Shown: positions 8,418 to 20,758, numbered from the stretch's first letter. The stretch: DNA of 63,436 bases from Bacilli bacterium (GCA_045601325.1 JAZRZI010000038.1:1-63436); one strand, 5' to 3'. Notes: generated by a model not told the origin, from the letters alone. Program-made: numbers and translations.

Positions 8418-9281
8418 TTATTTTGCTTCAAAATTCTTTTTGTTTAGTTTTGGCATGCCTTTAGAAGAATTTTTGAAAACATATTCGGTTTGATCGATTG
8501 AGATAGATTCAGATTTGCCATCTTTGGATCTATAAATATAGGTTGTTTTTGTTATAGCTTCTTGAACGATTAAATCACGAGCGTCAAAACTAACATAATA
8601 ATTATAATTTTGATCCAAAACTTCATCGCCGTTTGGGTCTGGTTTATATTCACTAGCTGTTTTGTAGTCTTCAATTGCTTGGAATGATTCTTCGTTATCA
8701 CTTCCATAATAACAATCGAGAGATTCGCCTTCATCTGGTTCGTATGTTTCTCCATCCCAAACAAGCTCATCGCCGATAGTTGAATAAACACCAGCGTTAC
8801 CTTCTTGGAAGAATTCTGTGACTGTATCTAAGAAGTTAGAATCAACCGTGCTTGCTTCACTTGCTGATTCGTTTCCTGCCTTTGATATAGCATAAACTAT
8901 GGTTGCGTTATTTGTTTCGCCTGGTACAAGCCATTGTTCATAAGATTGAGAGAGCTCTCCGTCTCCGTCAATTACAAGTTCTTCTAGCTTCATGTACGCT
9001 ATTTGGGATTTTTTAGAATACATGAGAATTGTTTTTGAAAGCTCCTTTTCATATACAGATGTATCTGGTGTGGTTTCTGTATATTCATACAAATAAGTAA
9101 GAGTAGCGCTGAATTCATCAGGCATAATGAATTGTGATAGTTCGACATTTTGTACAATGTTATTATAAATTGCCTGAGCTTCTTCTGCGCTTACGGCTTT
9201 TTGTTTTGGCAGACCTTTATCACCACATGCTAGTAACATAAAAGACGTTAATAACAAAATACTTTTGCTTAATTTTTTCAT
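8418..9281 (-). CDS. lipoprotein, function unknown (acidic)
   Basis: Signal peptide with lipobox MKKLSKSILLLTSFMLLAC-GDK. No enzymatic motif recognised. Confidence 0.7.
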   Translation of the reverse strand: MKKLSKSILLLTSFMLLACGDKGLPKQKAVSAEEAQAIYNNIVQNVELSQFIMPDEFSATLTYLYEYTETTPDTSVYEKELSKTILMYSKKSQIAYMKLEELVIDGDGELSQSYEQWLVPGETNNATIVYAISKAGNESASEASTVDSNFLDTVTEFFQEGNAGVYSTIGDELVWDGETYEPDEGESLDCYYGSDNEESFQAIEDYKTASEYKPDPNGDEVLDQNYNYYVSFDARDLIVQEAITKTTYIYRSKDGKSESISIDQTEYVFKNSSKGMPKLNKKNFEAK

Positions 9282-9354
9282 GGATAAGTTTCCTTTCTTT
9301 GCTATTGTTAACTCTCTAAATTAGAGAGATTGGTTAATGTTATTTTATACGATT

Positions 9355-9552
9355 TTAGTTACACAGTCCAGCGCTTTGGTTGTCGAATTCTTCAATGCAA
9401 TCTTCACAAATTAGCTTTTCATACACATCACCTAGGAATCTCTCATCTTCAAATCAATTAATGATTAAGTGGGATAGTATGTCACATTCTATATATGTGT
9501 GACCGTCGATGAGTTTTTGTTTTTTAGCTTCAATATAAAAACGCGGCGTTGC
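9355..9552 (-). pseudogene. relic ORF (no start codon, one in-frame TGA)
   Basis: Minus-strand frame reads ATPRFYIEAKKQKLIDGHTYIECDILSHLIIN-TGA-FEDERFLGDVYEKLICEDCIEEFDNQSAGLCN-TAA. The TGA is at 9454..9456. There is no ATG/GTG/TTG at the 5' end. Confidence 0.3.
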
Positions 9553-9570
9553 TTATGCTGTGAAATTATA

Positions 9571-10854
9571 TCAATCTAGATAATCTTCAAAACTTGCTAT
9601 TTTAATACAAAGGCCAAGAACTTTAGAAGCTAGTTTTAACTCTTCAGTAGAAGGGAAACTAGGTGCAATTCTTAAATTAGAGTCATTAGGATCTTTATGA
9701 TAAGGATACGCTGCTCCAATAGGCGTTAATATGACACCCAAGTCTTTACAAAGGTTATATACCCTGGTTGCACATCCTTTTAACGTGTATAAAGAAATGA
9801 AATATCCACCCCTAGGTTTAGTGAATTTTACTATATCCAAATCTTTCAATTCTTCATCTAAGATATTTTCAACAATTTCAAATTTAGGCCTTAATATCTC
9901 CGCATGTTTTTTCATTTGAGCTTTAATACCATCAAGATCTTTAAAGAACCTTACATGACGTAGTTGGTTAACTTTATCATAGCCAATAGTTTGAATTGTC
10001 ATATTATCTAAGATATCTTTTTTATTGCTTTCGCTTGTTGCTAAAGCAGCGATACCACTACCAGGGAATGATATCTTACTAGTGGATGTAAATTTATATA
10101 CTATATCAGGATTACCTGCTAGATTACATTCGTGTAAGATTTCAAGAATTGTGTCTATATTATCTTCATAAAGGTGGTGAACGCTATAAGCATTATCCCA
10201 ATAAATTCTGAAATCTTTAGCTTTTGGCTGGAGTTTTGCGAATCTTTTAACAACCTCATCGCTATAAGATATTCCGTCAGGGTTAGAGTATTTAGGTACA
10301 CACCATATACCTTTAATAGATTCATCTTTGCTAACAAATTCTTCAATTAAGTCCATATCTGGGCCGCTAGAAGTTAGTGGTATGTTAATCATTTCGATTC
10401 CGAAATATTCACAGATAGCAAAATGTCTATCATATCCTGGAACAGGACATAACCATTTAATCTTATCCAATTTACACCAAGGGGTATTTCCACACACACC
10501 TTTGATATATGCATGAGCGAAACAGTCATACATTACTCTTAAAGAAGAATTACCAAAGACAATTATGTTTTTTGCATCAACCTCAATAAGGGAACCTAAT
10601 AGTCTTTTGCACTCCTCAATACCATCAAGCACTCCATAGTTACGACAATCTATACCGTCCTCACATTTAAGTTCAGAAGATGAAGAAAGAACATCCATCA
10701 TTCCCATAGATAAATCTAGTTGTTCTTTACAAGGTTTACCTCTAGTCATGTTAATAGAAAGATTTAAAGTTTTGTAATCTTGGTATTCTTTGTATAAAGA
10801 ATTAAGAATGCTTCTAATCTCTTCTCTGGAATATTGTTTGATAGATTTACCCAT
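9571..10854 (-). CDS. class I/II PLP-dependent aminotransferase (aspartate-aminotransferase-like, ~430-aa subgroup)
   Basis: ORF track 9571..10866 starts at GTG. The ATG at 10852-10854 lies 5 nt after the gdhA stop, with GGAG upstream. PLP-lysine context FTSTSKISFPGSG; N-terminal NMTRGKPCKEQLDLS. Substrate assignment is an inference. Confidence 0.8.
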   Translation of the reverse strand: MGKSIKQYSREEIRSILNSLYKEYQDYKTLNLSINMTRGKPCKEQLDLSMGMMDVLSSSSELKCEDGIDCRNYGVLDGIEECKRLLGSLIEVDAKNIIVFGNSSLRVMYDCFAHAYIKGVCGNTPWCKLDKIKWLCPVPGYDRHFAICEYFGIEMINIPLTSSGPDMDLIEEFVSKDESIKGIWCVPKYSNPDGISYSDEVVKRFAKLQPKAKDFRIYWDNAYSVHHLYEDNIDTILEILHECNLAGNPDIVYKFTSTSKISFPGSGIAALATSESNKKDILDNMTIQTIGYDKVNQLRHVRFFKDLDGIKAQMKKHAEILRPKFEIVENILDEELKDLDIVKFTKPRGGYFISLYTLKGCATRVYNLCKDLGVILTPIGAAYPYHKDPNDSNLRIAPSFPSTEELKLASKVLGLCIKIASFEDYLD

Positions 10855-10859
10855 ATTAA

Positions 10860-12206
10860 TTAGCACACTCCTTGAGCTAGCATGGCTTCAAATATTTTCA
10901 AAAATCCAGCAACATTTGCACCTAATGCTAAATTAGTAGGTTCACCACACTCTTTAGCGGTTTCATAACACTTTTTAAATATGTTAAGCATAATGTCTTT
11001 AAGTTTATTATCAACTTCCTTAAATGTCCAAGATATGTGCATTGCGTTTTGACTCATTTCAAGTCCAGATACCGCCACTCCACCTGCGTTACTAGCTTTA
11101 CCCGGAGCGAATAAGATATCATTATCTTTAAAGAATCTAATTGATTCTAAATTTGTTGGCATGTTCGCTCCTTCTACTACCATAAAGCAACCGTTATCTT
11201 TAAGCGCTTTTGCGCTTTGAATATCAATTTCTCCTTGCGTCGCACATGGAAGCGCGATATCACAAGGTGTATTCCATAAATCACTAGAGTTAGAAGAATG
11301 TGTAACTTCTGGGTGGTTATTAACATATTGATTAATAACTCCTCTTCCTTTCTTAGCTATAGAAACGATTTCATCAGCATCTAAACCACTAGAATCTTTA
11401 ATACATCCAGTGCTATCGCTAACGCCAACAACAACCGCACCTAGTTCGTGAGCTTTTTTAATAGCAAAGCTGCCAACTTTACCGCAGCCAGAAATTAATA
11501 CTCTTTTGCCTTTAATATCTTCGTTTTTAAACGTTTTTAACATTTCACATGTGAAATATAATAAACCATAACCCGTGGCTTCTGGTCTTCCTAACGAACC
11601 TCCAAAAGAAGGATGTTTACCAGTAAAAACACCATTCCATGAGTTAGTTATTTTTTTATATTCGCCAAACATATAACCAATTTCTCTGGCGCCAAAACCC
11701 AAGTCTCCAGCAGGAACATCGGTATCTGGTCCTATGTATTTATATAGTTCATTCATCATTGATTGGCAGAATCTCATAACTTCGCCATCGCTTTTACCGT
11801 GTGGATCAAAGTCACTACCACCTTTAGCGCCGCCCATAGGCAAGCCAGTTAATGAATTTTTAAACGCCTGTTCAAATCCTAAAAACTTAAGAATAGATAA
11901 GTTAACGGATTTATCGAATCTCATCCCACCTTTATAAGGACCAATCGCACTATTGAATTGAACTCTATAACCGGTATTGACTCTTATTTTGCCTTGATCA
12001 TCAACCCAAGGCACTCTAAATGCAATGACTCTTTCAGGTTCAACAAGCCTTTCTAAAATCGCGTTAGCTTCAATACGAGGATCTTTATCAACTATGTAAT
12101 CCATTGAATCAAAAAATTCTTCAACGGCTTGAATAAATTCTTTTTCGTTGAAATGCTTGATTTTAACTTCTTCTAACACTCTATTTAGGTATTCGCTTTT
12201 ATACAT
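10860..12206 (-). CDS. gdhA: NADP-specific glutamate dehydrogenase
   Basis: 448 aa. Catalytic motif LPMGGAKGGSDFDPHGKSDGEVMRFC; dinucleotide fold ISGCGKVGSFA. GGAGG lies 8 nt upstream of the ATG. Confidence 0.95.
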   Translation of the reverse strand: MYKSEYLNRVLEEVKIKHFNEKEFIQAVEEFFDSMDYIVDKDPRIEANAILERLVEPERVIAFRVPWVDDQGKIRVNTGYRVQFNSAIGPYKGGMRFDKSVNLSILKFLGFEQAFKNSLTGLPMGGAKGGSDFDPHGKSDGEVMRFCQSMMNELYKYIGPDTDVPAGDLGFGAREIGYMFGEYKKITNSWNGVFTGKHPSFGGSLGRPEATGYGLLYFTCEMLKTFKNEDIKGKRVLISGCGKVGSFAIKKAHELGAVVVGVSDSTGCIKDSSGLDADEIVSIAKKGRGVINQYVNNHPEVTHSSNSSDLWNTPCDIALPCATQGEIDIQSAKALKDNGCFMVVEGANMPTNLESIRFFKDNDILFAPGKASNAGGVAVSGLEMSQNAMHISWTFKEVDNKLKDIMLNIFKKCYETAKECGEPTNLALGANVAGFLKIFEAMLAQGVC

Positions 12207-12220
12207 AACGACAGGCCTCC

Positions 12221-13315
12221 TTATTTATCTTGTACAACACTTTCGCAATAAATGCACTTATATGTTTTGGTTTTTTTATCCACTAAAGTAAATTTATGAA
12301 CATGCCCTTGTTCATATTGAGATATACATCGAGGATTATTACATTTTAAATCTTTTCTTATGGTTTTTTCATCCCATAACGGCTCTTTTTTTGGGTTTTC
12401 TTTTGCTAATTCTAATAATTTTAGTATAAGCGCCATACGAATGTATTTACCGTTTTCCACTTGTTTGAAATAACACGCTCTAGGATCATCATCTACTTGA
12501 ACACTAATTTCATTCACTCTTGGTAAAGGGTGAAGCACAATCATATCCTTCTTTGCTTTGGACATCTTTATGACATCCAAAACATAACTATCTTTTAGTC
12601 TTTCGTATTCTTCTTTGTCAAAGAATCTTTCTCTTTGAATACGAGTCATATATAGAACATCCAACTCATCAATATTGTCTTCTAAAGAAGTCACTTCCTT
12701 AAACTCCATGTGATTAGGGGCAATCAAACCCTGTTTGATGTATTCTGGAATCATGAGTTCTTTAGGAGATATAAGTATTAGTTTAATGTTTTTATATCTT
12801 GATAAGGCGCTTATTAATGAATGAACGGTACGACCATATTTTAAATCTCCACATAGTCCAATTGTTAGGTTATCAAAAGTACCTTTTTCTCTATAAATTG
12901 TGAATAGGTCAGTTAATGTTTGAGTAGGATGACAGTGCATACCATCTCCAGCATTGATAACTGGGATATCCGAAGAAGAAGCACCCACTAATGCCGCTCC
13001 ATCATTAGGATGACGCATAGCGACAATATCAGCAAATTTAGATACGACTTTAAGTGTGTCTCCTACGCTTTCACCTTTGCTAACTGACGAGCTACTGGCT
13101 TCGGAAAACCCTAATACATTGCCGCCTAATTCCATCATTGCAGCAGTAAAAGATAGCCTAGTTCTTGTAGAAGGTTCAAAGAATAAGGTAGCAAGCTTTT
13201 TGCCTTTACAAACTTCACTATATTTGACTGGATTAGAGATTATATCTAAAGCAATTTGGATTAATTCATCTAATTCTTCTAATGATAAATCTTTGATATC
13301 AATGAGGTTTTTCAT
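12221..13315 (-). CDS. pyrB: aspartate carbamoyltransferase catalytic chain with C-terminal PyrI-type zinc domain
   Basis: STRTR (carbamoyl-P site), HPTQ and HPLPR motifs are present. The canonical PyrB ends near aa 300-305 ([10 protein letters not shown]). It is followed by [37 protein letters not shown], giving C-x4-C-x23-C-x2-C. The ATG overlaps the pyrE TAA (TAATG). Confidence 0.92.
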
Positions 13316-13959
13316 TATTTAATCCAACTTTCATCACTTGGGTTATTTCTAAATGCGATGAGTTTCTCAACATCGCTTGGTTTAATGTAACTTTCTTCTG
13401 CTGCTACACGAGCAATAACATCGAAGTTAGTTAAAGAGATGTTTTTAACATTAGCTTTTTCAAGTCTATCTAAACCTTTTTGCATTCCATATGTGAAGAT
13501 AGATACAATACCTAATACTTCCGCACCAGCTTCTCTTAATGCTTCAACAACTTCAATACAAGAACCGCCGGTGGAAATTAAATCTTCAACCACGACAACC
13601 TTTTGACCTTTTTCTAATTTGCCTTCAATTTGGTTGCCTCTACCATGATCCTTTGCACCGCTTCTCACATAACCCATAGGCAATCCTAAGATGTGTCCTG
13701 CAATAGCAGCGTGAGCAATGCCTGCTGTAGAAGTGCCCATGAGTACTTCAACTTCTGGATAATAGGTTTTAATAACTTCTGCAATTGAGTTTTCAATATC
13801 ATTTCTCACTTCGGGGGCAGTTAAAGTTAATCTATTATCGCAATAGACAGGACTTTTAATACCGCTTGCCCATGTGAATGGTTCGTTAGGACGAAAGAAT
13901 ACCGCCTTAATAAAAAGTAAGTCTTTTGCTATTTTTTCTTCAATTAATTTCTTATCCAT
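13315..13959 (-). CDS. pyrE: orotate phosphoribosyltransferase
   Basis: PRPP-binding loop [14 protein letters not shown]. The ORF track begins at 13998, but the ATG at 13957-13959 has GGAG 9 nt upstream and lies 14 nt after the pyrF stop. Confidence 0.92.
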
Positions 13960-13973
13960 ATTATCAATCTCCA

Positions 13974-14672
13974 TTAATCTAAAAATTCTTTTAAACATCT
14001 ACTATATGCTTCTAATGGGTCACTAGCTTGTGTAATTGGTCTACCCACAACTATATAGTCACTTCCAATTTCCTTTGCTTGAGCAGGTGTCATAACTCTT
14101 TTTTGATCACCAACTTCTCCATCCGCAAATCTAACTCCAGGAGTGACTGTAAGAAAATGCTTTCCACATAGTTCGTGAACTTTATTAGCCTCAAGAGGCG
14201 AACAAACAACACCATCTAAACCACATTCGCTTGCGTTTTTTGCATAATGCATAACAACTTTATCAATTGGTTCTTTAATCAATAAATCATTTTCCATACT
14301 TTCTTGGTCAGTTGAAGTGAGCTGTGTAACTGCGATAAGTAAAGGTCTTGAACCATCCTCTCTGGTCAAACCTTCTAACGCCGCTAGCATCATTCTTTTT
14401 GTGCCTGATGCATGTAAATTAGTCATATCAACATCAAGATTTCTAAGCACCGCCATTGATTTTTTAACCGTATTAGGAATGTCGTGTAACTTTAAATCTA
14501 AAAAGATTTTGTGCCCTCTAGCTTTAATCTCTCTTACTATATCTGGTCCAGCAGAATAAAAGAGTTCCATACCAATTTTGACAAACGGTTTTCTTTCTTT
14601 AAATTGATCTAAAAACGCTAAAGTTTTCTCTTTAGAGTCAAAATCACATGCAATAATCACGTCTTTTCCCAT
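13974..14672 (-). CDS. pyrF: orotidine 5'-phosphate decarboxylase
   Basis: 232 aa with [13 protein letters not shown] and VKIGMELF motifs. Shares one base with the pyrD end. Confidence 0.95.
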
Positions 14673-15583
14673 TATTTACATCCTCCTACGATATCTTTTA
14701 AGGAATTAATTTTATATTTATCCATTACGCTTGGTAATGAATCAATAATCTTTTTACACGCGAATGGATCTACTAAATTAGCCGCTCCAACTTCAACTGC
14801 GGTTGCACCAGCAAGCATCATCTCGATGACATCTTCTGCTTTAGAAACTCCACCCATACCTATGACAGGAATATTTACTGCATGGCTAACTTGATACACC
14901 ATTCTTAAAGCAATTGGGAAAATCCCTTCTCCGGAATATCCACCCATAGTGTTAGCTAGAACTGGCTTTTTAGTTTTAAGATCTATTCTCATGCCCAACA
15001 CTGTATTGATAAGCGAGATTGCATCTGCGCCTGCTTCTTCCACTGCTTTAGCTATACTAACTATATCAGTAACATTAGGTGACAATTTAATAATAATTGG
15101 TTTTTTACAAACAGCCTTAACTGCTTTTGTCACTTTAGCGGCGTTCTCACTAGAGGTTCCAAAAGCCATTCCACCACCATGAACATTTGGGCAAGAAATA
15201 TTAACTTCAATCCAGCCAATTTGTTCAATTTTATCTAGTTTAGAACAAGTGTATACAAAGTCATCAACACTAAAACCAGAGACATTTGCCATTACTTTTT
15301 TATTAAATACTTTAAATAATTTAGGGAGTTCTTCTTCTATTACTTTATCTACGCCAGGATTTTGTAAACCAACAGAATTAAGCATGCCGGCTTTGCACTC
15401 TGCAATTCTTGGAGTTGGATTACCGTATCTAGGTTCTTTTGTTGTTCCTTTAAAAGAGAGTGATCCTAAACAATTAATATCGTAGATATCTGCGAACTCA
15501 TAACCAAAACCAAAGGTTCCAGAAGCAGGAATAATAGGGTTATCTAATTCGATACCACATAAGCTAACTTTTGTATCTACCAT
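14672..15583 (-). CDS. pyrD: dihydroorotate dehydrogenase B, catalytic subunit
   Basis: 303 aa. Class-1 active-site Cys in [16 protein letters not shown]-binding GMGGV. Paired with pyrK immediately upstream. Confidence 0.93.
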
Positions 15584-16353
15584 AATATTTCCTCCTTCTC
15601 AAACACTGGACCATCTTTACAAATACGCTTATTTCCAAAGTTTGTTTTGCAAGTGCAACCCATGCAAGCTCCAAAGCCACAACCCATTCTTTCTTCAAAT
15701 GAATATTGACCACTTGTAGTGCTGTTTTTATAAACAGCTTTTAACATTGGTAATGGGCCACATGCATATGTATATGTGTAGTTAAATTTACCAAAAGCAT
15801 CAGTGACAAAACCTTTGATACCATAGCTACCATCAACGGTTGTGACAACAACATCACAACCCAAGGCTTTAAATTCTTCTTCAAAGAAGATTTCCTCTTT
15901 GTTATTAAAACCCAAGATAACGTTAACGTGTTTGCCTTCTTTGATTAGTTTTTTAGCTAATAGATATAGAGGCGGAACACCTACTCCTCCACCAATTAAT
16001 AGAGGACTGTTTTGTGATTTAGATAGGTCATATCCGTTTCCTAAATCAACAAGGATATCTAATTCCCCATCTTTTAACGTAGAAAGAAGTTCGGTTCCTT
16101 CTCCTACCACTTTGTAGATAATGGTGAGACTATTTTCATTAACATCATTAACTGATATTGGCCTTCTTAAATATAAGTTAGGCAGTTTAATGTTAACAAA
16201 ACTACCTGGTCTATCTAACCCAAATACATTACCCAAAAGCACCATCTTGTAAACATTAGATGTTAGGGGTTTGTTTTCAATAATCTTAAATAATTCTTGT
16301 CTCATGCTATTCATCAATCGTGGAAATCTTAAGTGTTGTCTCTTCCAAGACAT
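15577..16353 (-). CDS. pyrK: dihydroorotate dehydrogenase B, electron-transfer (FAD/2Fe-2S) subunit
   Basis: RPISV and GGGVGVPPL ferredoxin-reductase motifs. C-terminal cluster MGCGFGACMGCTC...ICKDGP. The true start is more likely the ATG at 16312-16314 or 16303-16305 (1 nt after the carB TAG) than 16353. Confidence 0.9.
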   Translation of the reverse strand: MSWKRQHLRFPRLMNSMRQELFKIIENKPLTSNVYKMVLLGNVFGLDRPGSFVNIKLPNLYLRRPISVNDVNENSLTIIYKVVGEGTELLSTLKDGELDILVDLGNGYDLSKSQNSPLLIGGGVGVPPLYLLAKKLIKEGKHVNVILGFNNKEEIFFEEEFKALGCDVVVTTVDGSYGIKGFVTDAFGKFNYTYTYACGPLPMLKAVYKNSTTSGQYSFEERMGCGFGACMGCTCKTNFGNKRICKDGPVFEKEEILW

Positions 16354-19300
16354 CCAATAGCACTCTTACAGTGTCTAAAGATGTGAACATGGTTGTGTTG
16401 TTTTCAATCGCTGCTTTTCTAATTAAATAACCATCTTTTTGTTCACCAACACTAGATGGATCTTGGGTGTTAATAACATAGGCAATATAGCCTTGACGGA
16501 TGTTATTAATAATTTCATTAGAACCGCTGTTAATTTTTTCAACAACATGAGTTCTAATACCATTTTCTTTTAAGAACAAAGCAGTACCTTCGGTAGCTTG
16601 GATATTAAATCCCAAATCATAGAACCTTCTAATTAATGGAAGAGCGACTTCTTTGTCTGCATCCGCGATAGTAGCAAATATCGTTCCATAGTTTTGCATT
16701 TTAATGCCAGAAGCTTGTAATGCTTTGTATAAAGCACGATTGAGCTTATCATCATAGCCAATAGCTTCACCTGTTGATTTCATTTCAGGAGACAAATAAG
16801 CATCTAATCCCATAATCTTATTAAATGAGAATACAGGAACCTTACAATACCAACGTTTCTTTTCTTCTGGATATAAATCAAAGATACCTAATTCTTTTAA
16901 TGATTTGCCTAAGATGACTTCTGTTGCAATATCAGCGAGAGAATATCCGGTAGATTTAGATAAAAATGGAACAGTTCTACTACTTCTAGGGTTAACTTCG
17001 ATGATGTAAACTTTTTCATTAGGATCAACAATAAATTGAATGTTGAATAAACCAACGATTCCGATGCCTAAACCTAACTTTTTCGCATATTGAAGAATGA
17101 TTCCCTTAACTTTGTTAGAAATAGAGAAAGTTGGATAAACAGATATGGAATCGCCAGAATGAATACCTGTCTTTTCGACAAGTTCCATAATACCCGGCAC
17201 AAAGACATTTCTTCCATCACATATCGCATCAACTTCAACTTCTTTACCAGAGATATATTTATCTACAAGTACTGGTTTGTCTTCATCTATTTCCACAGCA
17301 GTCTTTAAATACTGTTTTAATTGCTTTTCATTAGAGACAATTTGCATTGCTCTACCACCCAAAACAAAGCTTGGTCTCACTAAAACCGGATAACCAATTT
17401 CTTTAGCGGCTTTTACACCGTCTTCGATTTTAGTAACCGCACATCCTTGTGGTTCAGGAATATCTAATTCTTTCAATAATTTTTCAAATAAGTTACGGTC
17501 TTCTGCCTTGTCTATAGCCTCACAATCAGTACCAATAATCTTTACTCCTCTTTTCATAAGTGGAGTGGCTAAATTAATAGCGGTTTGTCCACCCAAAGAT
17601 GCAATTACACCTATTGGTTTTTCTAAATCAACAATTGCCATAACATCTTCAGGTGTTAAAGGTTCGAAATATAACTTATCTGCCGTTGTATAGTCGGTAG
17701 AAACCGTTTCTGGATTGTTGTTAATAATGATAGCTTCATATCCTGCACGCTTAATCGTTTGCACAGCGTGAACGGTTGAGTAATCAAATTCCACGCCTTG
17801 ACCAATTCTAATTGGGCCAGCACCCAAAACAATGATTTTCTTCTTGTTAGTGATTCTGGATTCGTTAACAAATTTATCGTTAACTAGGTTTTGATAAGTG
17901 GAATATAAATAGGCAATGTATTTGCCTGTGTGAAGGGTGTCCACCATTTTATAAACCGGTTTAACACCATTTTCTTTTCTAAAGTTATAAATATCAATTT
18001 CGTGAGAATTCCATAATTTTGCAATAAATTTATCTGAAAAACCCATGGTTTTTGCTTTTTTAAGTTCTTCTAAATCAAATGGCTTTCCTTTTAAACAGTT
18101 TTCTTCATCTACAATGTTTTTAATAGCTTTTAAGAATATGTCTGTAATCATTGTGATTTCATGAAGCTCATCTAGTGAAACGCCTCTTCTAATAAGTTCG
18201 GTGACAGCAAAAATACCATCATCTTTAAACTTAAGGATGTATTCTTTTAACTCTTCAGTTGTATATGTATCAAATAACTTTTTGTGCAGGTGACATACAC
18301 CAACTTCTAACGAGCGAGTAGACTTAAGCATACATTCTTCTAATGTAGCACCAATACCCATGACTTCACCGGTAGCTTTCATTTGTGTGCTTAAAGTATT
18401 ATTAGCGGTTGAAAATTTATCAAATGGGAATCTTGGGAACTTCGCAATGACATAGTCTAATGTTGGTTCAATCGCTGCTGTTCCACCCGCAACCGGTATT
18501 TCTTCTAACGACATACCCACAGCAATTTTGGCGGTAACTCTAGCAATTGGATAACCACTAGCTTTGCTAGCGAGCGCACTAGAACGAGATACACGAGGAT
18601 TTACTTCGATTAAATAGTATTCACTTGTATTTGGATTTAACGCGAATTGAACATTACATCCACCACAAATTTTTAATTCTTTAATTAACTTGATAGCAGA
18701 ATCGTTAAGCATTCTTAAATCGTGGTCGTTTAAAGACATGATTGGTGCAACAACAATACTATCGCCAGTATGAACACCTACTGGGTCAACATTCTCCATA
18801 CCACATATCGTGATAGCGTGGTCGTTAGCGTCACGCATAACTTCAAATTCAATTTCTTTATAACCCTTAACACTCTTTTCAACCAACACTTGATGAACAG
18901 GTGATAAGTTAAATGCTTGTAAACCAATTTCAATTAATTCTTCTTCGTTATTTGCGAAACCACCACCAGTACCACCTAATGTAAATGCTGGTCTTAATAC
19001 CACTGGATAACCTATCTCAAGAGCAGCTTTTTTAGCTTCTTCTAATGAATATGTAATTTTACTAGGAATAACCGGTTCGCCAATTGATTCGCACATTTTT
19101 TTGAATAATTCTCGATCTTCTGCCCTTTCGATAGAATTGCTTGATGTACCAAGAAGCTCAACTTCACATTCTTTAAGAACGCCTTTCTTTTCTAATTGAA
19201 TGGCGAGATTAAGACCCGTTTGACCACCAATACCAGGAAGAATAGCATCTGGTCTTTCTTTTCTTAATATTTTTGCGACATACTCTAGTGTTAATGGTTC

Positions 19301-19498
19301 CATATAAACCTTATTAGCGATGGTTGTGTCAGTCATAATTGTTGCAGGGTTAGAATTAACTAATATAACTTCATACCCTTCTTCTCTTAACGCTAAACAA
19401 GCTTGTGTTCCTGCGTAATCAAATTCTGCTGCTTGGCCAATAACGATAGGTCCAGAACCTATGATAAGTATCTTTTTAATGTCTTTTCTTTTCGCCAT
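16307..19498 (-). CDS. carB: carbamoyl-phosphate synthase large subunit
   Basis: 1063 aa. Duplicated ATP-grasp halves start with GSGPIVIGQAAEFDYAGTQA and GAGPIRIGQGVEFDYSTVHA. C-terminal MGS-like domain. Starts 1 nt after the pyrC TAA. Confidence 0.97.
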   Translation of the reverse strand: MAKRKDIKKILIIGSGPIVIGQAAEFDYAGTQACLALREEGYEVILVNSNPATIMTDTTIANKVYMEPLTLEYVAKILRKERPDAILPGIGGQTGLNLAIQLEKKGVLKECEVELLGTSSNSIERAEDRELFKKMCESIGEPVIPSKITYSLEEAKKAALEIGYPVVLRPAFTLGGTGGGFANNEEELIEIGLQAFNLSPVHQVLVEKSVKGYKEIEFEVMRDANDHAITICGMENVDPVGVHTGDSIVVAPIMSLNDHDLRMLNDSAIKLIKELKICGGCNVQFALNPNTSEYYLIEVNPRVSRSSALASKASGYPIARVTAKIAVGMSLEEIPVAGGTAAIEPTLDYVIAKFPRFPFDKFSTANNTLSTQMKATGEVMGIGATLEECMLKSTRSLEVGVCHLHKKLFDTYTTEELKEYILKFKDDGIFAVTELIRRGVSLDELHEITMITDIFLKAIKNIVDEENCLKGKPFDLEELKKAKTMGFSDKFIAKLWNSHEIDIYNFRKENGVKPVYKMVDTLHTGKYIAYLYSTYQNLVNDKFVNESRITNKKKIIVLGAGPIRIGQGVEFDYSTVHAVQTIKRAGYEAIIINNNPETVSTDYTTADKLYFEPLTPEDVMAIVDLEKPIGVIASLGGQTAINLATPLMKRGVKIIGTDCEAIDKAEDRNLFEKLLKELDIPEPQGCAVTKIEDGVKAAKEIGYPVLVRPSFVLGGRAMQIVSNEKQLKQYLKTAVEIDEDKPVLVDKYISGKEVEVDAICDGRNVFVPGIMELVEKTGIHSGDSISVYPTFSISNKVKGIILQYAKKLGLGIGIVGLFNIQFIVDPNEKVYIIEVNPRSSRTVPFLSKSTGYSLADIATEVILGKSLKELGIFDLYPEEKKRWYCKVPVFSFNKIMGLDAYLSPEMKSTGEAIGYDDKLNRALYKALQASGIKMQNYGTIFATIADADKEVALPLIRRFYDLGFNIQATEGTALFLKENGIRTHVVEKINSGSNEIINNIRQGYIAYVINTQDPSSVGEQKDGYLIRKAAIENNTTMFTSLDTVRVLLDVLEETTLKISTIDE

Positions 19499-19499
19499 A

Positions 19500-20738
19500 T
19501 TAGTTACCTTCTTTCAAATAAACAACTTTGTTATCAATAACAGTTACTAGGTTTAAACCTAGTACTTCAACCCCTTTAAACGGGGTGGATTTCCCTTTAG
19601 ATATAAATGTATTTGGATCAATAATTGATTTGTTTTTTAAATCCCATATAGAAAAAGAATTATTGAATGGGATAGAAAATCTCTTGCGAGGATTTATTAC
19701 TATCAAATCCAATAATTTTGAAAAAGTTATAATATTCTTTTTTACTAAATATGTATATAGGAGAGGAAAAGCAGTTTCTATTCCTACGATGCCGAAGGGA
19801 GAGTCTTTAAGCCCTTTGCTTTTTTCTAGCTCGCTATGGGGCGCGTGGTCTGTCGCAATCATATCGATGGTGCCATCTTTAATACCTTCAATAAGAGCAA
19901 GTTGATCGTTTTTCTTTCTTAGAGGTGGGTTCATTTTGAAGTCCCCGGATTCCTTTAAGTCTTCTTCACACAATAGCAAGTAATGGGGAGCGGTTTCACA
20001 AGTGATATCCACCCCTTCTTTTTTGGCTTGCCTAATTAATTCGACACTCTCTTTAGTGGATATGTGACAAACATGATATTTACATCCTGTTTCTTTGGCC
20101 AATTTAATATCTCTTTCAATTTGAAGATATTCACTTTCGTTACAAATGCCTAAATGATTGTGGGCTTTAGAATATTCACCTTCATTTATATATCCACCTT
20201 TTAACAAAGAATTAACTTCACAATGAGCGACGATAATCTTGTTAAGAGATTTGGCTTTATTCATCGCTTCTTTCATCAATTCTTCACTTTGTAGGCCTCT
20301 TCCGTCATCAGAAAAAGCGATAACCATATCCTTGGTCAGCTCTAATGGTGATAGTTCTTCTCCTTTTTCGTTAATAGAGATAGAACCATAAGGATAAATA
20401 TCAATAACCGAATCTTTATTGATAATGTCTAGTTGAGATTGAATATGTTCGATGGTATCGGAAACAGGATTTAAGTTAGGCATCGTGCAAACGGAAGTAT
20501 ATCCCCCATGCGCAGCCGCTAAAGAACCGCTAGCGATAGTCTCTTTATAAGAAAAACCTGGCTCTCTGTAATGAACATGAACGTCACAGAAGCCAGGAAT
20601 TGCGATATATCTTGAGCTATTAAAATTTGAATGAGTTTTTATGAAGGAATAGACAGCATTCCCAATGAGTCGTTTTTTGAGGATTTTAATGCCGCTATTT
20701 TTCTTCATAGAAATGATTTTCTTTATAAGAATATACAT
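19500..20738 (-). CDS. pyrC: dihydroorotase
   Basis: Metal-binding DVHVHYREPG and ATDHAPHS motifs. The first ATG (20738) overlaps a near-consensus -10 box, so the functional start may be the ATG at 20706-20708 (MKKNSG...). Confidence 0.9.
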   Translation of the reverse strand: MYILIKKIISMKKNSGIKILKKRLIGNAVYSFIKTHSNFNSSRYIAIPGFCDVHVHYREPGFSYKETIASGSLAAAHGGYTSVCTMPNLNPVSDTIEHIQSQLDIINKDSVIDIYPYGSISINEKGEELSPLELTKDMVIAFSDDGRGLQSEELMKEAMNKAKSLNKIIVAHCEVNSLLKGGYINEGEYSKAHNHLGICNESEYLQIERDIKLAKETGCKYHVCHISTKESVELIRQAKKEGVDITCETAPHYLLLCEEDLKESGDFKMNPPLRKKNDQLALIEGIKDGTIDMIATDHAPHSELEKSKGLKDSPFGIVGIETAFPLLYTYLVKKNIITFSKLLDLIVINPRKRFSIPFNNSFSIWDLKNKSIIDPNTFISKGKSTPFKGVEVLGLNLVTVIDNKVVYLKEGN

Positions 20739-20758
20739 TTATAACGATGTCGAGTCAA
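20730..20758 (-). promoter_or_regulatory. candidate sigma-A promoter of the pyr operon
   Basis: On the minus strand: TTGACT (20753..20758), a 17-nt spacer, then TATATT (20730..20735). Confidence 0.4.

What the first reader, a model, noticed from the sequence alone, without database searches (positions are those of the whole stretch)
9571..20758. Pyrimidine operon with no carA and no pyrR, extended by gdhA and an aminotransferase: possibly a glutamine-independent design
- Nine minus-strand genes are joined by 1-14 nt gaps or overlaps. These include pyrC TAA-T-ATG carB, carB TAG-C-ATG pyrK, a pyrE/pyrB TAATG overlap, GGAGG before gdhA, and 5 nt between gdhA and the aminotransferase ATG.
- The order pyrC-carB-pyrK-pyrD-pyrF-pyrE-pyrB differs from the Bacillus-type pyrR-P-B-C-AA-AB-K-D-F-E.
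- The place where carA (the glutaminase subunit) normally sits is a 1-nt gap. No carA-like ORF exists anywhere in the window.
- The isolated CPSase large subunit is known to use free ammonia.
- GDH plus an Asp-type aminotransferase together convert oxaloacetate and NH3 into aspartate, the second ATCase substrate.
- As encoded, the operon could therefore build the pyrimidine ring from NH3, bicarbonate and oxaloacetate without glutamine.
Basis: partly seen in the sequence, partly recalled or inferred. Interest (0 to 1): 0.6.

Follow-up and report, generated by a model that had tools for sequence, protein, structure and literature searches.

The report
Pyrimidine operon without the glutaminase subunit
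This gut bacterium, like many of its relatives, has cleanly lost the glutamine-splitting partner (CarA) of carbamoyl-phosphate synthetase, so it most likely builds pyrimidines from free ammonia, which reviews say bacterial enzymes of this kind do not do in vivo.

Summary
The minus strand carries pyrC-carB-pyrK-pyrD-pyrF-pyrE-pyrB-gdhA-aat, tightly packed.

**What is missing in this 90.6%-complete genome**
- carA, pyrR, glnA, pyrG, glmS, carbamate kinase and ornithine carbamoyltransferase were not found.
- No class I GATase domain and no GATase_7 (one of several class II families) was found.

**The loss is real and widespread**
- A sister genus keeps pyrC-carA-carB. Here that slot is 1 nt.
- None of the 80 closest CarB loci in public genomes holds carA. 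In 74 of them pyrC abuts carB.
- About 40 of 184 carB-bearing Oscillospirales species sampled lack carA.

**The carA-less CarBs are a distinct, working group**
- They form one clade on a long stem and are under purifying selection.
- The otherwise invariant Arg265 is replaced by Asn.
- All 25 CPS proteins fused to a glutaminase-type domain keep Arg265.

**CTP synthesis is also ammonia-based**
- The genome has PyrJ, reported as an ammonia-only CTP synthase.
- 37 of the 40 carA-less species sampled have PyrJ without PyrG.

**The gdhA-aat extension is lineage-specific**
- It is linked to the operon only here and in the closest relative.

This scan had already noted carA-less pyr operons on other DNA. 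No biochemistry or RNA data exist. I found no published description.

The parts
20730..20758 (-). Promoter-like site TTGACT-17-TATATT in front of the operon
   Evidence: Consensus scan, 10 of 12 matches. It overlaps the longest pyrC ORF, so the ATG at 20708 is the likelier start. No PyrR-binding RNA was found.
19500..20738 (-). pyrC, dihydroorotase
   Evidence: TIGR00857 at 374 bits against a cut-off of 279. Its stop is 1 nt before the carB ATG.
16307..19498 (-). carB, carbamoyl-phosphate synthetase large subunit (1063 aa) with no carA partner
   Evidence: NF003671 at 1420 bits and TIGR01369 at 1377 bits, with all CPSase_L domains and the MGS domain. It belongs to a monophyletic carA-less clade. 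dN/dS is 0.06-0.12.
18701..18742 (-). Remodelled patch, CarB residues 253-266 (IMSLNDHDLRMLND), including Asn265 in place of the invariant Arg265
   Evidence: Translation. At position 265 partnered CarBs have R in 39 of 39 and orphans have N in 80 of 82. Numbering equals E. coli CarB here.
15577..16353 (-). pyrK, electron-transfer subunit of dihydroorotate dehydrogenase B (likely start is the ATG at 16305)
   Evidence: Three PRK00054-family pyrK models score 191-234 bits, just under their cut-offs: NF000798 215.1 against 219, NF000799 233.6 against 314. Pfam DHODB_Fe-S_bind matches at 55 bits against 23.9. The junction reads TAG-C-ATG.
14672..15583 (-). pyrD, dihydroorotate dehydrogenase catalytic subunit
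   Evidence: NF005574 at 431 bits.
13974..14672 (-). pyrF, OMP decarboxylase
   Evidence: NF001273 at 303 bits.
13315..13998 (-). pyrE, orotate phosphoribosyltransferase (likely start at the TAATG, 13974)
   Evidence: TIGR00336 at 147 bits against a cut-off of 107.
12221..13315 (-). pyrB, aspartate carbamoyltransferase with a C-terminal PyrI-type zinc domain
   Evidence: TIGR00670 at 345 bits. PF02748 (PyrI_C) matches residues 321-363. It is the only transcarbamoylase found in the genome.
10860..12206 (-). gdhA, NADP-specific glutamate dehydrogenase
   Evidence: NF006929 at 689 bits against a cut-off of 536. It lies 14 nt after pyrB behind a GGAGG. G041 has the same position.
9571..10866 (-). 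aat, type Ic aspartate aminotransferase of the Rv3722c family (likely ATG at 10854)
   Evidence: NF053594 at 630 bits against a cut-off of 435, and PF12897 at 492 bits. It starts 5 nt after the gdhA stop.

Best explanation
The operon encodes a complete route to UMP in which carbamoyl phosphate is made by CarB alone. CarB takes free ammonia instead of ammonia channelled from a CarA glutaminase.

History (shown): an ancestor with pyrR-pyrC-carA-carB-pyrK-D-F-E-B lost carA by a clean deletion. The resulting carA-less CarB lineage is now found in many gut and rumen Firmicutes.

Mechanism (inferred): with no small subunit docked, the mouth of the ammonia tunnel on the carboxyphosphate domain is open to solvent. 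The patch 253-266 was remodelled, and the interface arginine 265 became asparagine. The inner gate Cys232/Ala251/Ala314 and both ATP-grasp active sites were kept.

In this genome carbamoyl phosphate has one visible source, CarB, and one visible consumer, PyrB. UTP is then aminated by PyrJ, an ammonia-only CTP synthase encoded on another contig, not by PyrG.

In this lineage an NADP glutamate dehydrogenase and an aspartate aminotransferase have been joined to the 3' end of the operon. They convert NH3, 2-oxoglutarate and oxaloacetate into aspartate, the second ATCase substrate.

On this reading every nitrogen of the pyrimidine ring and of cytosine comes from ammonia without passing through glutamine.
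For: **Absence in this genome**
- carA was not found by HMM or by tblastn.
- Also not found: any PF00117 GATase, glnA, pyrG, glmS, GATase_7, arcC and OTC.

**Clean deletion**
- G014, in the same family, has pyrC-carA-carB-K-D-F-E-B.
- G000, G009, G022 and G041 have pyrC abutting carB.

**Breadth**
- None of the 80 nearest CarB loci has carA, and 74 have pyrC directly upstream.
- 28 of 36 of those genomes have no carA anywhere. In the six of the other eight whose carA loci I read, carA abuts a second carB.
- In 201 sampled Oscillospirales species, 40 of 184 carB-bearing genomes lack carA. I inspected 19 of these 40, and all are of the pyrC-carB type.

**A functional, distinct enzyme**
- The carA-less CarBs are monophyletic on a stem of 0.22 substitutions per site.
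- dN/dS is 0.06-0.12.
- Scores exceed the curated cut-offs.

**Residue 265**
- It is R in 39 of 39 partnered CarBs and N in 80 of 82 orphans.
- An independent carA-less CarB in G102 has K.
- G163 looked carA-less but had R, and it proved to carry a truncated carA at a contig end.
- All 25 CPS proteins fused to a glutaminase-type domain have R. Stand-alone CarBs have R in 93 of 114.

**PyrJ**
- It is present in G000 at 560 bits.
- The purified enzyme uses NH3 and not glutamine (bioRxiv 10.1101/2024.09.24.614635).
- 37 of 40 carA-less genomes have PyrJ without PyrG, against 38 of 144 carA-bearing genomes.

**Established biochemistry**
- The isolated large subunit makes carbamoyl phosphate from ammonia, and the small subunit contacts the carboxyphosphate and oligomerisation domains (PMC6245113).

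**The gdhA-aat extension**
- The families were identified, and the Rv3722c family is a proven aspartate aminotransferase (PMC7181641).
- gdhA follows pyrB in G041 too. gdhA and aat are adjacent in G022.
Against: - No enzyme assay, isotope tracing or RNA data exist for any member.
- E. coli CPS needs very high, probably unphysiological, ammonia concentrations (PMC6245113). A carA-less enzyme would need either better affinity or an ammonia-rich habitat, and neither is shown.
- The genome is 90.6% complete in 57 contigs.
- That Arg265 sits at the small-subunit interface and tunnel wall rests on my memory of Kim & Raushel 2004. The paper could not be read here.
- Divergent sites are not significantly enriched in the CarA-contacting half (p = 0.18).
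- The species counted are related, so the carA/pyrG/pyrJ association is not a set of independent events.
- gdhA and aat are unlinked to the operon in 19 of 19 carA-less Oscillospirales checked.
- Most of the larger carA-less genomes keep a glutamine synthetase.
Confidence: 0.7

Rival explanations
1. carA exists but lies in the roughly 10% of the genome that was not assembled or binned. The enzyme would then be an ordinary glutamine-dependent CarAB.
For: Completeness is 90.57% in 57 contigs. One apparent carA-less genome, G163, turned out to have carA cut off by a contig end.
Against: - In relatives carA sits directly upstream of carB. Here that slot is a 1-nt gap inside an intact contig.
- The same holds in more than 90 independent assemblies.
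- 28 of 36 such genomes have no carA anywhere.
- CarB carries the clade signature N265, whereas the falsely carA-less G163 had R265.
Confidence: 0.03
2. CarB works with a different, unrecognised partner that delivers ammonia. This could be a non-homologous glutaminase, an asparaginase-type enzyme, or another amidotransferase subunit that moonlights.
For: - Many carA-less Clostridia keep one small class I GATase of about 210 aa.
- The patch 253-266 is remodelled yet strongly conserved within the clade. That could mark a new docking surface rather than an open mouth.
Against: - In the one genome whose neighbourhood I annotated (G089), the small GATase is HisH inside a complete his operon.
- G000 and nine other carA-less genomes have no PF00117 domain at all.
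- G000 has no GATase_7 domain either.
- No conserved extra gene sits in the operon across the 80 loci.
Confidence: 0.12
3. The de novo pathway is a decaying remnant, or CarB has been recruited to another reaction. Pyrimidines would then come from salvage.
For: The genome is small and lacks many biosynthetic genes. Most genera sampled from its family and order (35 of 40 genomes) have no carB at all.
Against: - All seven pyr genes are intact and tightly coupled.
- carB is under strong purifying selection.
- It is 77-84% identical across two classes of Firmicutes and always sits in the same pyr operon.
- PyrJ is retained.
Confidence: 0.05
4. The gdhA-aat pair is simply a neighbouring nitrogen-assimilation module. 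Its position after pyrB would be a rearrangement accident with no special role in pyrimidine synthesis.
For: - gdhA and aat lie on other contigs than the pyr operon in G009 and G022, and in 17 of 19 carA-less Oscillospirales. In the other two gdhA shares the contig but lies 6 and 16 kb away.
- All of these genomes have both genes somewhere.
- G022 has the gdhA-aat pair on its own.
Against: - The gaps are 14 nt and 5 nt, with a ribosome-binding site and no terminator-like hairpin.
- G041 independently has gdhA 14 nt after pyrB, and aat upstream of pyrR-pyrC.
- An earlier scan note reports another carA-less pyr operon led by an aminotransferase.
Confidence: 0.3

Closest known systems
E. coli carbamoyl-phosphate synthetase CarAB (CPS II; PDB 1BXR, 1JDB)
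   Same: - The large subunit has the same length and domain order and aligns end to end at 976 bits.
- The tunnel gate Cys232/Ala251/Ala314 is kept.
- The isolated E. coli large subunit is known to make carbamoyl phosphate from ammonia (PMC6245113).
   Different: - There is no small subunit gene.
- Arg265 is Asn, and the helix 253-266 is remodelled.
- The enzyme serves pyrimidines only, because no OTC is present.
- The gene sits between pyrC and pyrK rather than in a carAB operon.
Animal CPS I (ammonia-dependent; PDB 5DOU)
   Same: It uses, or here is inferred to use, free ammonia rather than glutamine.
   Different: - CPS I keeps a fused, inactive glutaminase-like domain, proposed to hold the path for external ammonia (PMC4655335).
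- All 25 CPS representatives fused to a glutaminase-type domain keep the Arg265 equivalent.
- Here the glutaminase part is gone altogether.
- Dependence on N-acetylglutamate is not expected.
Bacillus-type pyr operon (pyrR-P-B-C-AA-AB-K-D-F-E)
   Same: It has the same enzymes from pyrC to pyrE, including the PyrK/PyrD type B dehydrogenase. Relatives G036 and G033 have pyrB-pyrC-carA-carB-K-D-F-E.
   Different: - pyrB is last.
- There is no pyrAA (carA) and no pyrP.
- This genome has no pyrR and no attenuator RNA, although the closest relative keeps pyrR.
- gdhA and aat are added.
PyrJ (DUF1846, Spd_0310) of Streptococcus pneumoniae, an ammonia-only CTP synthase
   Same: It follows the same logic: a glutamine-dependent pyrimidine step replaced by an ammonia-dependent one. 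A PyrJ homologue is present in this genome and in 39 of 40 carA-less Oscillospirales sampled.
   Different: PyrJ is a non-homologous replacement of PyrG. Here the synthetase is retained and only its glutaminase subunit is dropped.
Carbamate-kinase-type CPS of Pyrococcus and Thermococcus
   Same: It makes carbamoyl phosphate from ammonia without a glutaminase (PMC6245113).
   Different: It has a different fold, the amino-acid kinase fold. No arcC-type gene is present here.

Membership tests
CPSase large subunit CarB (TIGR01369 / NF003671) | Full-length match above the curated cut-off, with two ATP-grasp halves, an oligomerisation domain and an MGS-like allosteric domain | tested here: met
   1377 bits against a cut-off of 1027, and 1420 against 599. 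Pfam finds CPSase_L_D1, D2 and D3 plus MGS.
CPSase large subunit CarB (TIGR01369 / NF003671) | Ammonia-tunnel gate Cys232/Ala251/Ala314 (E. coli numbering; PMC8674909, PMC4655335) | tested here: met
   The gate reads C, A, A in each carA-less CarB inspected for it: G102 and the 13 extra Oscillospirales loci. C232 and A251 are visible in the window's own alignment to E. coli CarB.
Glutamine-dependent CPS II holoenzyme (CarA+CarB) | A carA / pyrAA gene for the glutaminase subunit in the genome | tested here: not met
   PF00988, TIGR01368 and tblastn with three CarA sequences gave no hit. Completeness is 90.6%. The slot next to carB is 1 nt.
Glutamine-dependent CPS II holoenzyme (CarA+CarB) | Invariant Arg265 of the large subunit. 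My memory of Kim & Raushel 2004 places it at the small-subunit interface and tunnel wall. | tested here: not met
   The window has Asn265. R is found in 39 of 39 partnered CarBs and in 25 of 25 fused CPS.
Glutamine-dependent CPS II holoenzyme (CarA+CarB) | Glutamine-dependent activity | not testable with these tools
   This needs an enzyme assay.
Ammonia-dependent CPS I (animals) | A fused inactive glutaminase-like N-terminal moiety and activation by N-acetylglutamate | tested here: not met
   The protein is 1063 aa and starts at the CarB N-terminus. It works like CPS I only in the inferred nitrogen donor.
PyrR-attenuated Bacillus-type pyr operon | A pyrR gene and PyrR-binding leader RNAs | tested here: not met
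   There is no Rfam match in the window and no tblastn hit with G041 PyrR in the genome. G041 and 10 other loci do keep pyrR upstream of pyrC.
PyrJ / DUF1846 ammonia-dependent CTP synthase | PF08903 domain in a protein of about 500 aa | tested here: met
   G000:C21:94358-95353 scores 560 bits in a 500-aa open frame. Activity was not tested.
Type Ic aspartate aminotransferase (Rv3722c family, NF053594 / PF12897) | Equivalog-level match above the cut-off | tested here: met
   630 bits against 435, and PF12897 at 492 bits. Substrate specificity of this protein was not tested.
NADP-specific glutamate dehydrogenase (NF006929) | Equivalog-level match above the cut-off | tested here: met
   689 bits against 536. 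Cofactor and direction were not tested.

The most novel reading that the evidence does not exclude
A large natural clade of bacterial carbamoyl-phosphate synthetases has dispensed with the glutaminase subunit. It is recognisable by pyrC-carB adjacency and Asn265.

Together with PyrJ it would form a pyrimidine pathway fed only by ammonia. This pathway would operate in roughly a fifth of Oscillospirales species and in genome-reduced gut Bacilli.

The remodelled patch 253-266 would be the adaptation that lets free ammonia enter at physiological concentrations. That contradicts the textbook statement that glutamine is the nitrogen donor of all bacterial CPSases.
Probability: 0.6. Interest if true: 0.75.

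Novelty: new variant of a known kind. Interest (0 to 1): 0.7.

Why it matters
[quoted passage not shown] A widespread, conserved, carA-less CarB in gut and rumen Firmicutes would be a natural counter-example.

- **Enzymology.** It offers a ready-made system for studying how the large subunit takes up external ammonia. Asn265 and the patch 253-266 are specific, testable candidates.
- **Annotation and modelling.** Genome annotation and metabolic models of gut bacteria would otherwise call the pathway broken, or assume a demand for glutamine.
- **A wider pattern.** With PyrJ, it points to a broader trend in ammonia-rich anaerobic habitats of replacing glutamine amidotransfer by direct use of ammonia.
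- **A practical marker.** Residue 265 predicted whether a CarB has a CarA partner in every case I could check.

Tried and rejected
- **RNA evidence.** No RNA holder was listed for window:9400-13400.
- **The look-up of encoding contigs.** I could not check gene neighbourhoods for the 21 stand-alone CarB representatives that lack Arg265.
- **Literature on Arg265.** Kim & Raushel 2004, Fan et al. 2009 and Holden et al. 1999 are not held, and searches found nothing. The structural role of Arg265 therefore rests on my memory.
- **Literature on carA-less bacterial CPS.** Nothing relevant was found.
- **Domain enrichment.** Divergent sites are not significantly enriched in the CarA-contacting half (15 of 235 against 6 of 191, p = 0.18). 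I dropped this argument.
- **A small GATase as a CarA surrogate.** In the one genome whose neighbourhood I annotated, it is HisH in a his operon. G000 has none.
- **Terminator or other RNA structure.** None was seen at the pyrB-gdhA junction or after aat. The operon's 3' end is undefined.
- **Tree support.** The support value printed on the orphan stem after re-rooting (0.41) is probably misplaced by the re-rooting. I rely on monophyly and the 0.22 stem length, not on that number.
- purF, purL/Q, guaA ATP-PPase, nadE, gatCAB, the other class II GATase families (PF00310, PF13522) and oxaloacetate-forming enzymes were not checked in G000.

Full report
**1. The observation**

The window is contig C38 of a 1.44-Mb assembly in 57 contigs, 90.57% complete, with about 33% G+C. 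Nine consecutive minus-strand ORFs lie between 9571 and 20738. NCBIfam and Pfam identify them as follows:
- pyrC, carB, pyrK, pyrD, pyrF, pyrE and pyrB.
- An NADP-specific glutamate dehydrogenase.
- A type Ic (Rv3722c-family) aspartate aminotransferase.

- 1 nt between pyrC and carB.
- TAG-C-ATG between carB and pyrK.
- TAATG overlaps at three junctions.
- 14 nt with GGAGG before gdhA.
- 5 nt before the aat ATG.

A promoter-like site overlaps the longest pyrC ORF, and there is no terminator-like hairpin inside the cluster. No Rfam family, including the PyrR-binding element, matches the window.

**2. Is carA really missing?**

- PF00988 and TIGR01368 find nothing in the whole assembly, while both ring in all 14 control genomes.
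- tblastn with CarA from three relatives finds nothing.
- Synteny is more telling. In the same family, G014 has pyrC-carA-carB-pyrK-D-F-E-B. G009 and G022 have the same operon with pyrC overlapping carB and no carA in the genome.
- The closest relative found, G041 (CarB 84% identical), has aat-pyrR-pyrC-carB-K-D-F-E-pyrB-gdhA.

carA was therefore removed cleanly from an operon that otherwise stayed intact.

**3. How general is it?**

- A scan of one genome per prokaryote species found at least 595 close CarB relatives.
- The best 80 are 77-84% identical. They come from gut and rumen MAGs labelled Oscillospiraceae, Acutalibacteraceae, Christensenellales, Faecousia and Bacilli.
- None of the 80 holds carA, and 74 show pyrC directly upstream of carB.
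- Of 36 of those genomes, 28 have no carA anywhere. The six of the other eight whose carA loci I read have carA abutting a second, more distant carB, in two of them next to a second transcarbamoylase-like gene.

I also drew an even sample of 201 species from the order of one such genome:

| Group | Count |
|---|---|
| Genomes with carB | 184 |
| Of these, with carA | 143 |
| Plus G163, whose carA is truncated at a contig end | 1 |
| carB-bearing genomes without carA | 40 (about 22%) |

I inspected 19 of the 40 at the locus level. All have pyrC-carB-pyrK. A 20th, G102, carries a different CarB type described in section 4.

**4. Is the orphan CarB a distinct, working enzyme?**

- In a tree with 39 partnered CarBs, the 82 carA-less sequences form one clade on a stem of 0.22 substitutions per site.
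- Their sister group is the partnered CarB of G014 together with partnered second copies.
- dN/dS against relatives is 0.06-0.12.

Comparing the two groups column by column gave 11 fixed differences.
- The outstanding one is position 265. It is Arg in 39 of 39 partnered sequences. In the orphans it is Asn in 80 of 82, with one Lys and one Thr.
- Numbering is identical to E. coli CarB there.
- The whole segment 253-266 is remodelled. The consensus S-Q-T-L-S/T-D-K-E-Y-Q-M-L-R becomes I-M/L-T/S-L-N/S-D-H-D-L-K-M-L-N-D.
- The published tunnel gate Cys232/Ala251/Ala314 (PMC8674909, PMC4655335) is kept.

Three further checks support a link between Arg265 and a glutaminase partner.
- An unrelated carA-less CarB in G102, only 49% identical, has Lys265.
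- G163 scored as carA-less but had Arg265. It proved to have carA cut by the contig end.
- Among 150 representatives of the whole family at 50% identity, all 25 proteins with a fused N-terminal glutaminase-type moiety have Arg. Stand-alone CarBs have Arg in 93 of 114.

From memory, Arg265 of the large subunit is one of the three residues mutated by Kim & Raushel (2004) to perforate the ammonia tunnel at the subunit interface. I could confirm only the paper's existence and title. An apparent enrichment of divergent sites in the CarA-contacting half is not significant (p = 0.18), and I do not use it.

**5. The rest of the nitrogen picture**

In G000 I found none of the following:

| Not found in G000 |
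|---|
| Class I GATase domain (PF00117) |
| Glutamine synthetase |
| PyrG |
| GlmS |
| GATase_7 domain (one of several class II families) |
| Carbamate kinase |
| Any transcarbamoylase other than PyrB |

Carbamoyl phosphate therefore has one visible source and one visible sink.

The missing CTP synthase puzzled me until earlier notes of this scan pointed to PyrJ.
- PyrJ is a DUF1846 protein. A preprint shows it converts UTP to CTP with ammonia and not with glutamine (10.1101/2024.09.24.614635).
- G000 has a PyrJ homologue on contig C21 at 560 bits, and so do G009, G022, G041 and G074.
- In the 201-species sample, 39 of 40 carA-less genomes have PyrJ and 37 have it without PyrG. Among carA-bearing genomes, 38 of 144 have PyrJ without PyrG.

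These species are related, so this is a pattern and not a statistical proof.

The larger carA-less genomes mostly keep a glutamine synthetase, often an open frame of about 700 aa that is probably type III. Many also keep one small class I GATase of about 210 aa, which is HisH inside a his operon in the one genome I annotated. What is shared across the clade is therefore ammonia-fed pyrimidine synthesis. Only the genome-reduced lineage of this window seems to have lost glutamine synthesis as well.

**6. The gdhA-aat extension**

- Both genes are confidently assigned, and the Rv3722c family is a proven aspartate aminotransferase (PMC7181641).
- GDH followed by AAT turns NH3, 2-oxoglutarate and oxaloacetate into aspartate. 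This follows from the established reactions of the two families.
- gdhA follows pyrB by 14 nt in both G000 and G041.
- aat follows gdhA in G000, but in G041 it precedes pyrR.
- In G022, gdhA and aat are adjacent on another contig.
- In G009 and in 19 of 19 carA-less Oscillospirales, both genes exist but are not adjacent to the pyr operon.

The extension is real in sequence, and co-transcription is plausible. It is a lineage-specific fusion of a common nitrogen module to the operon, not a conserved part of the design. No RNA run was listed, so co-transcription remains untested.

**7. Mechanism and rivals**

*Shown:*
- Gene content and clean loss of carA.
- Clade structure and purifying selection.
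- The residue-265 pattern.
- PyrJ co-occurrence.

*Inferred:*
- CarB alone uses free ammonia.
- The remodelled patch is the exposed tunnel mouth.
- The habitat, or improved affinity, makes this workable.

*Rivals:*
- A missed carA is very unlikely.
- An unknown partner that delivers ammonia is not excluded, but no candidate exists in this genome.
- A decaying pathway is contradicted by conservation.
- Incidental adjacency of gdhA-aat remains open.

**8. Novelty**

- I found no paper describing bacteria with carB but no carA.
- A recent review extends glutamine dependence to all bacterial CPSases (PMC6245113).
- This scan had already flagged carA-less pyr operons of the same gene order in other genomes. 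It had also followed up three other operons that pair an orphan carB with an unusual purF, two of them with pyrJ as well. The phenomenon is therefore not unique to this window.
- New in this report are the clade-wide survey, the clean-deletion series, the Arg265 marker and the carA/PyrG/PyrJ cross-tabulation.

I classify the finding as a new variant of a known kind.

Noticed in passing
window 12221-12403 (-): PyrB is 364 aa. It ends in a PyrI-type zinc domain (PF02748, residues 321-363) without the allosteric domain of PyrI. The same 363-366-aa form occurs in G009, G022, G014 and G041, whereas G036 and G033 have 317-aa PyrB.
   Followed up: partly
L122:592-4665 (-), and many rows: Many Oscillospirales CarB open frames are about 1350 aa. 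In L122 the extra 290 C-terminal residues are a diaminopimelate epimerase (PF01678, 189 bits), which suggests a conserved CarB-DapF fusion.
   Followed up: partly
L143:3988-8055 (+), genome G102: This is a second, unrelated kind of carA-less CarB. It is 49% identical to the window's, has a 1355-aa frame, carries Lys at position 265 and sits just downstream of purA. No carA or pyrG was found in that genome, and PyrJ is present.
   Followed up: partly
Proteins P0003, P0012, P0028, P0038, P0133 and others: 21 of 114 stand-alone CarB representatives at 50% identity lack Arg265 and have K, A, D, E, Q, C, S or T instead. They are candidates for further independent losses of carA.
   Followed up: no
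G041:C2:17211-18245 (-): A 350-aa open frame matches only the sugar-isomerase half of GlmS (TIGR01135 positions 245-607, 297 bits) and lacks the glutaminase domain. G000, G009 and G022 have no GlmS match at all. How glucosamine-6-phosphate is made is unclear.
   Followed up: no
G237:C45:1800-3935 (+): In one carA-less Oscillospirales genome gdhA is followed closely by pyrJ on the same strand. This is another physical link between ammonia assimilation and ammonia-dependent pyrimidine steps.
   Followed up: no
G000, whole genome: No PF00117 domain means there is no canonical GuaA glutaminase domain either. Whether GMP is made by an ammonia-using ATP-pyrophosphatase subunit or by salvage was not checked.
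   Followed up: no
L064:1-4057: This is the one carA-less CarB locus with a full 4-kb upstream flank that shows neither pyrC nor carA upstream, so another arrangement of the operon exists.
   Followed up: no
window 9282-9570: A 289-nt spacer after aat has no convincing terminator. The next clear terminator-like hairpin is at 8401-8382, after an unassigned 287-aa ORF (8418-9281) that matches no NCBIfam family.
   Followed up: partly
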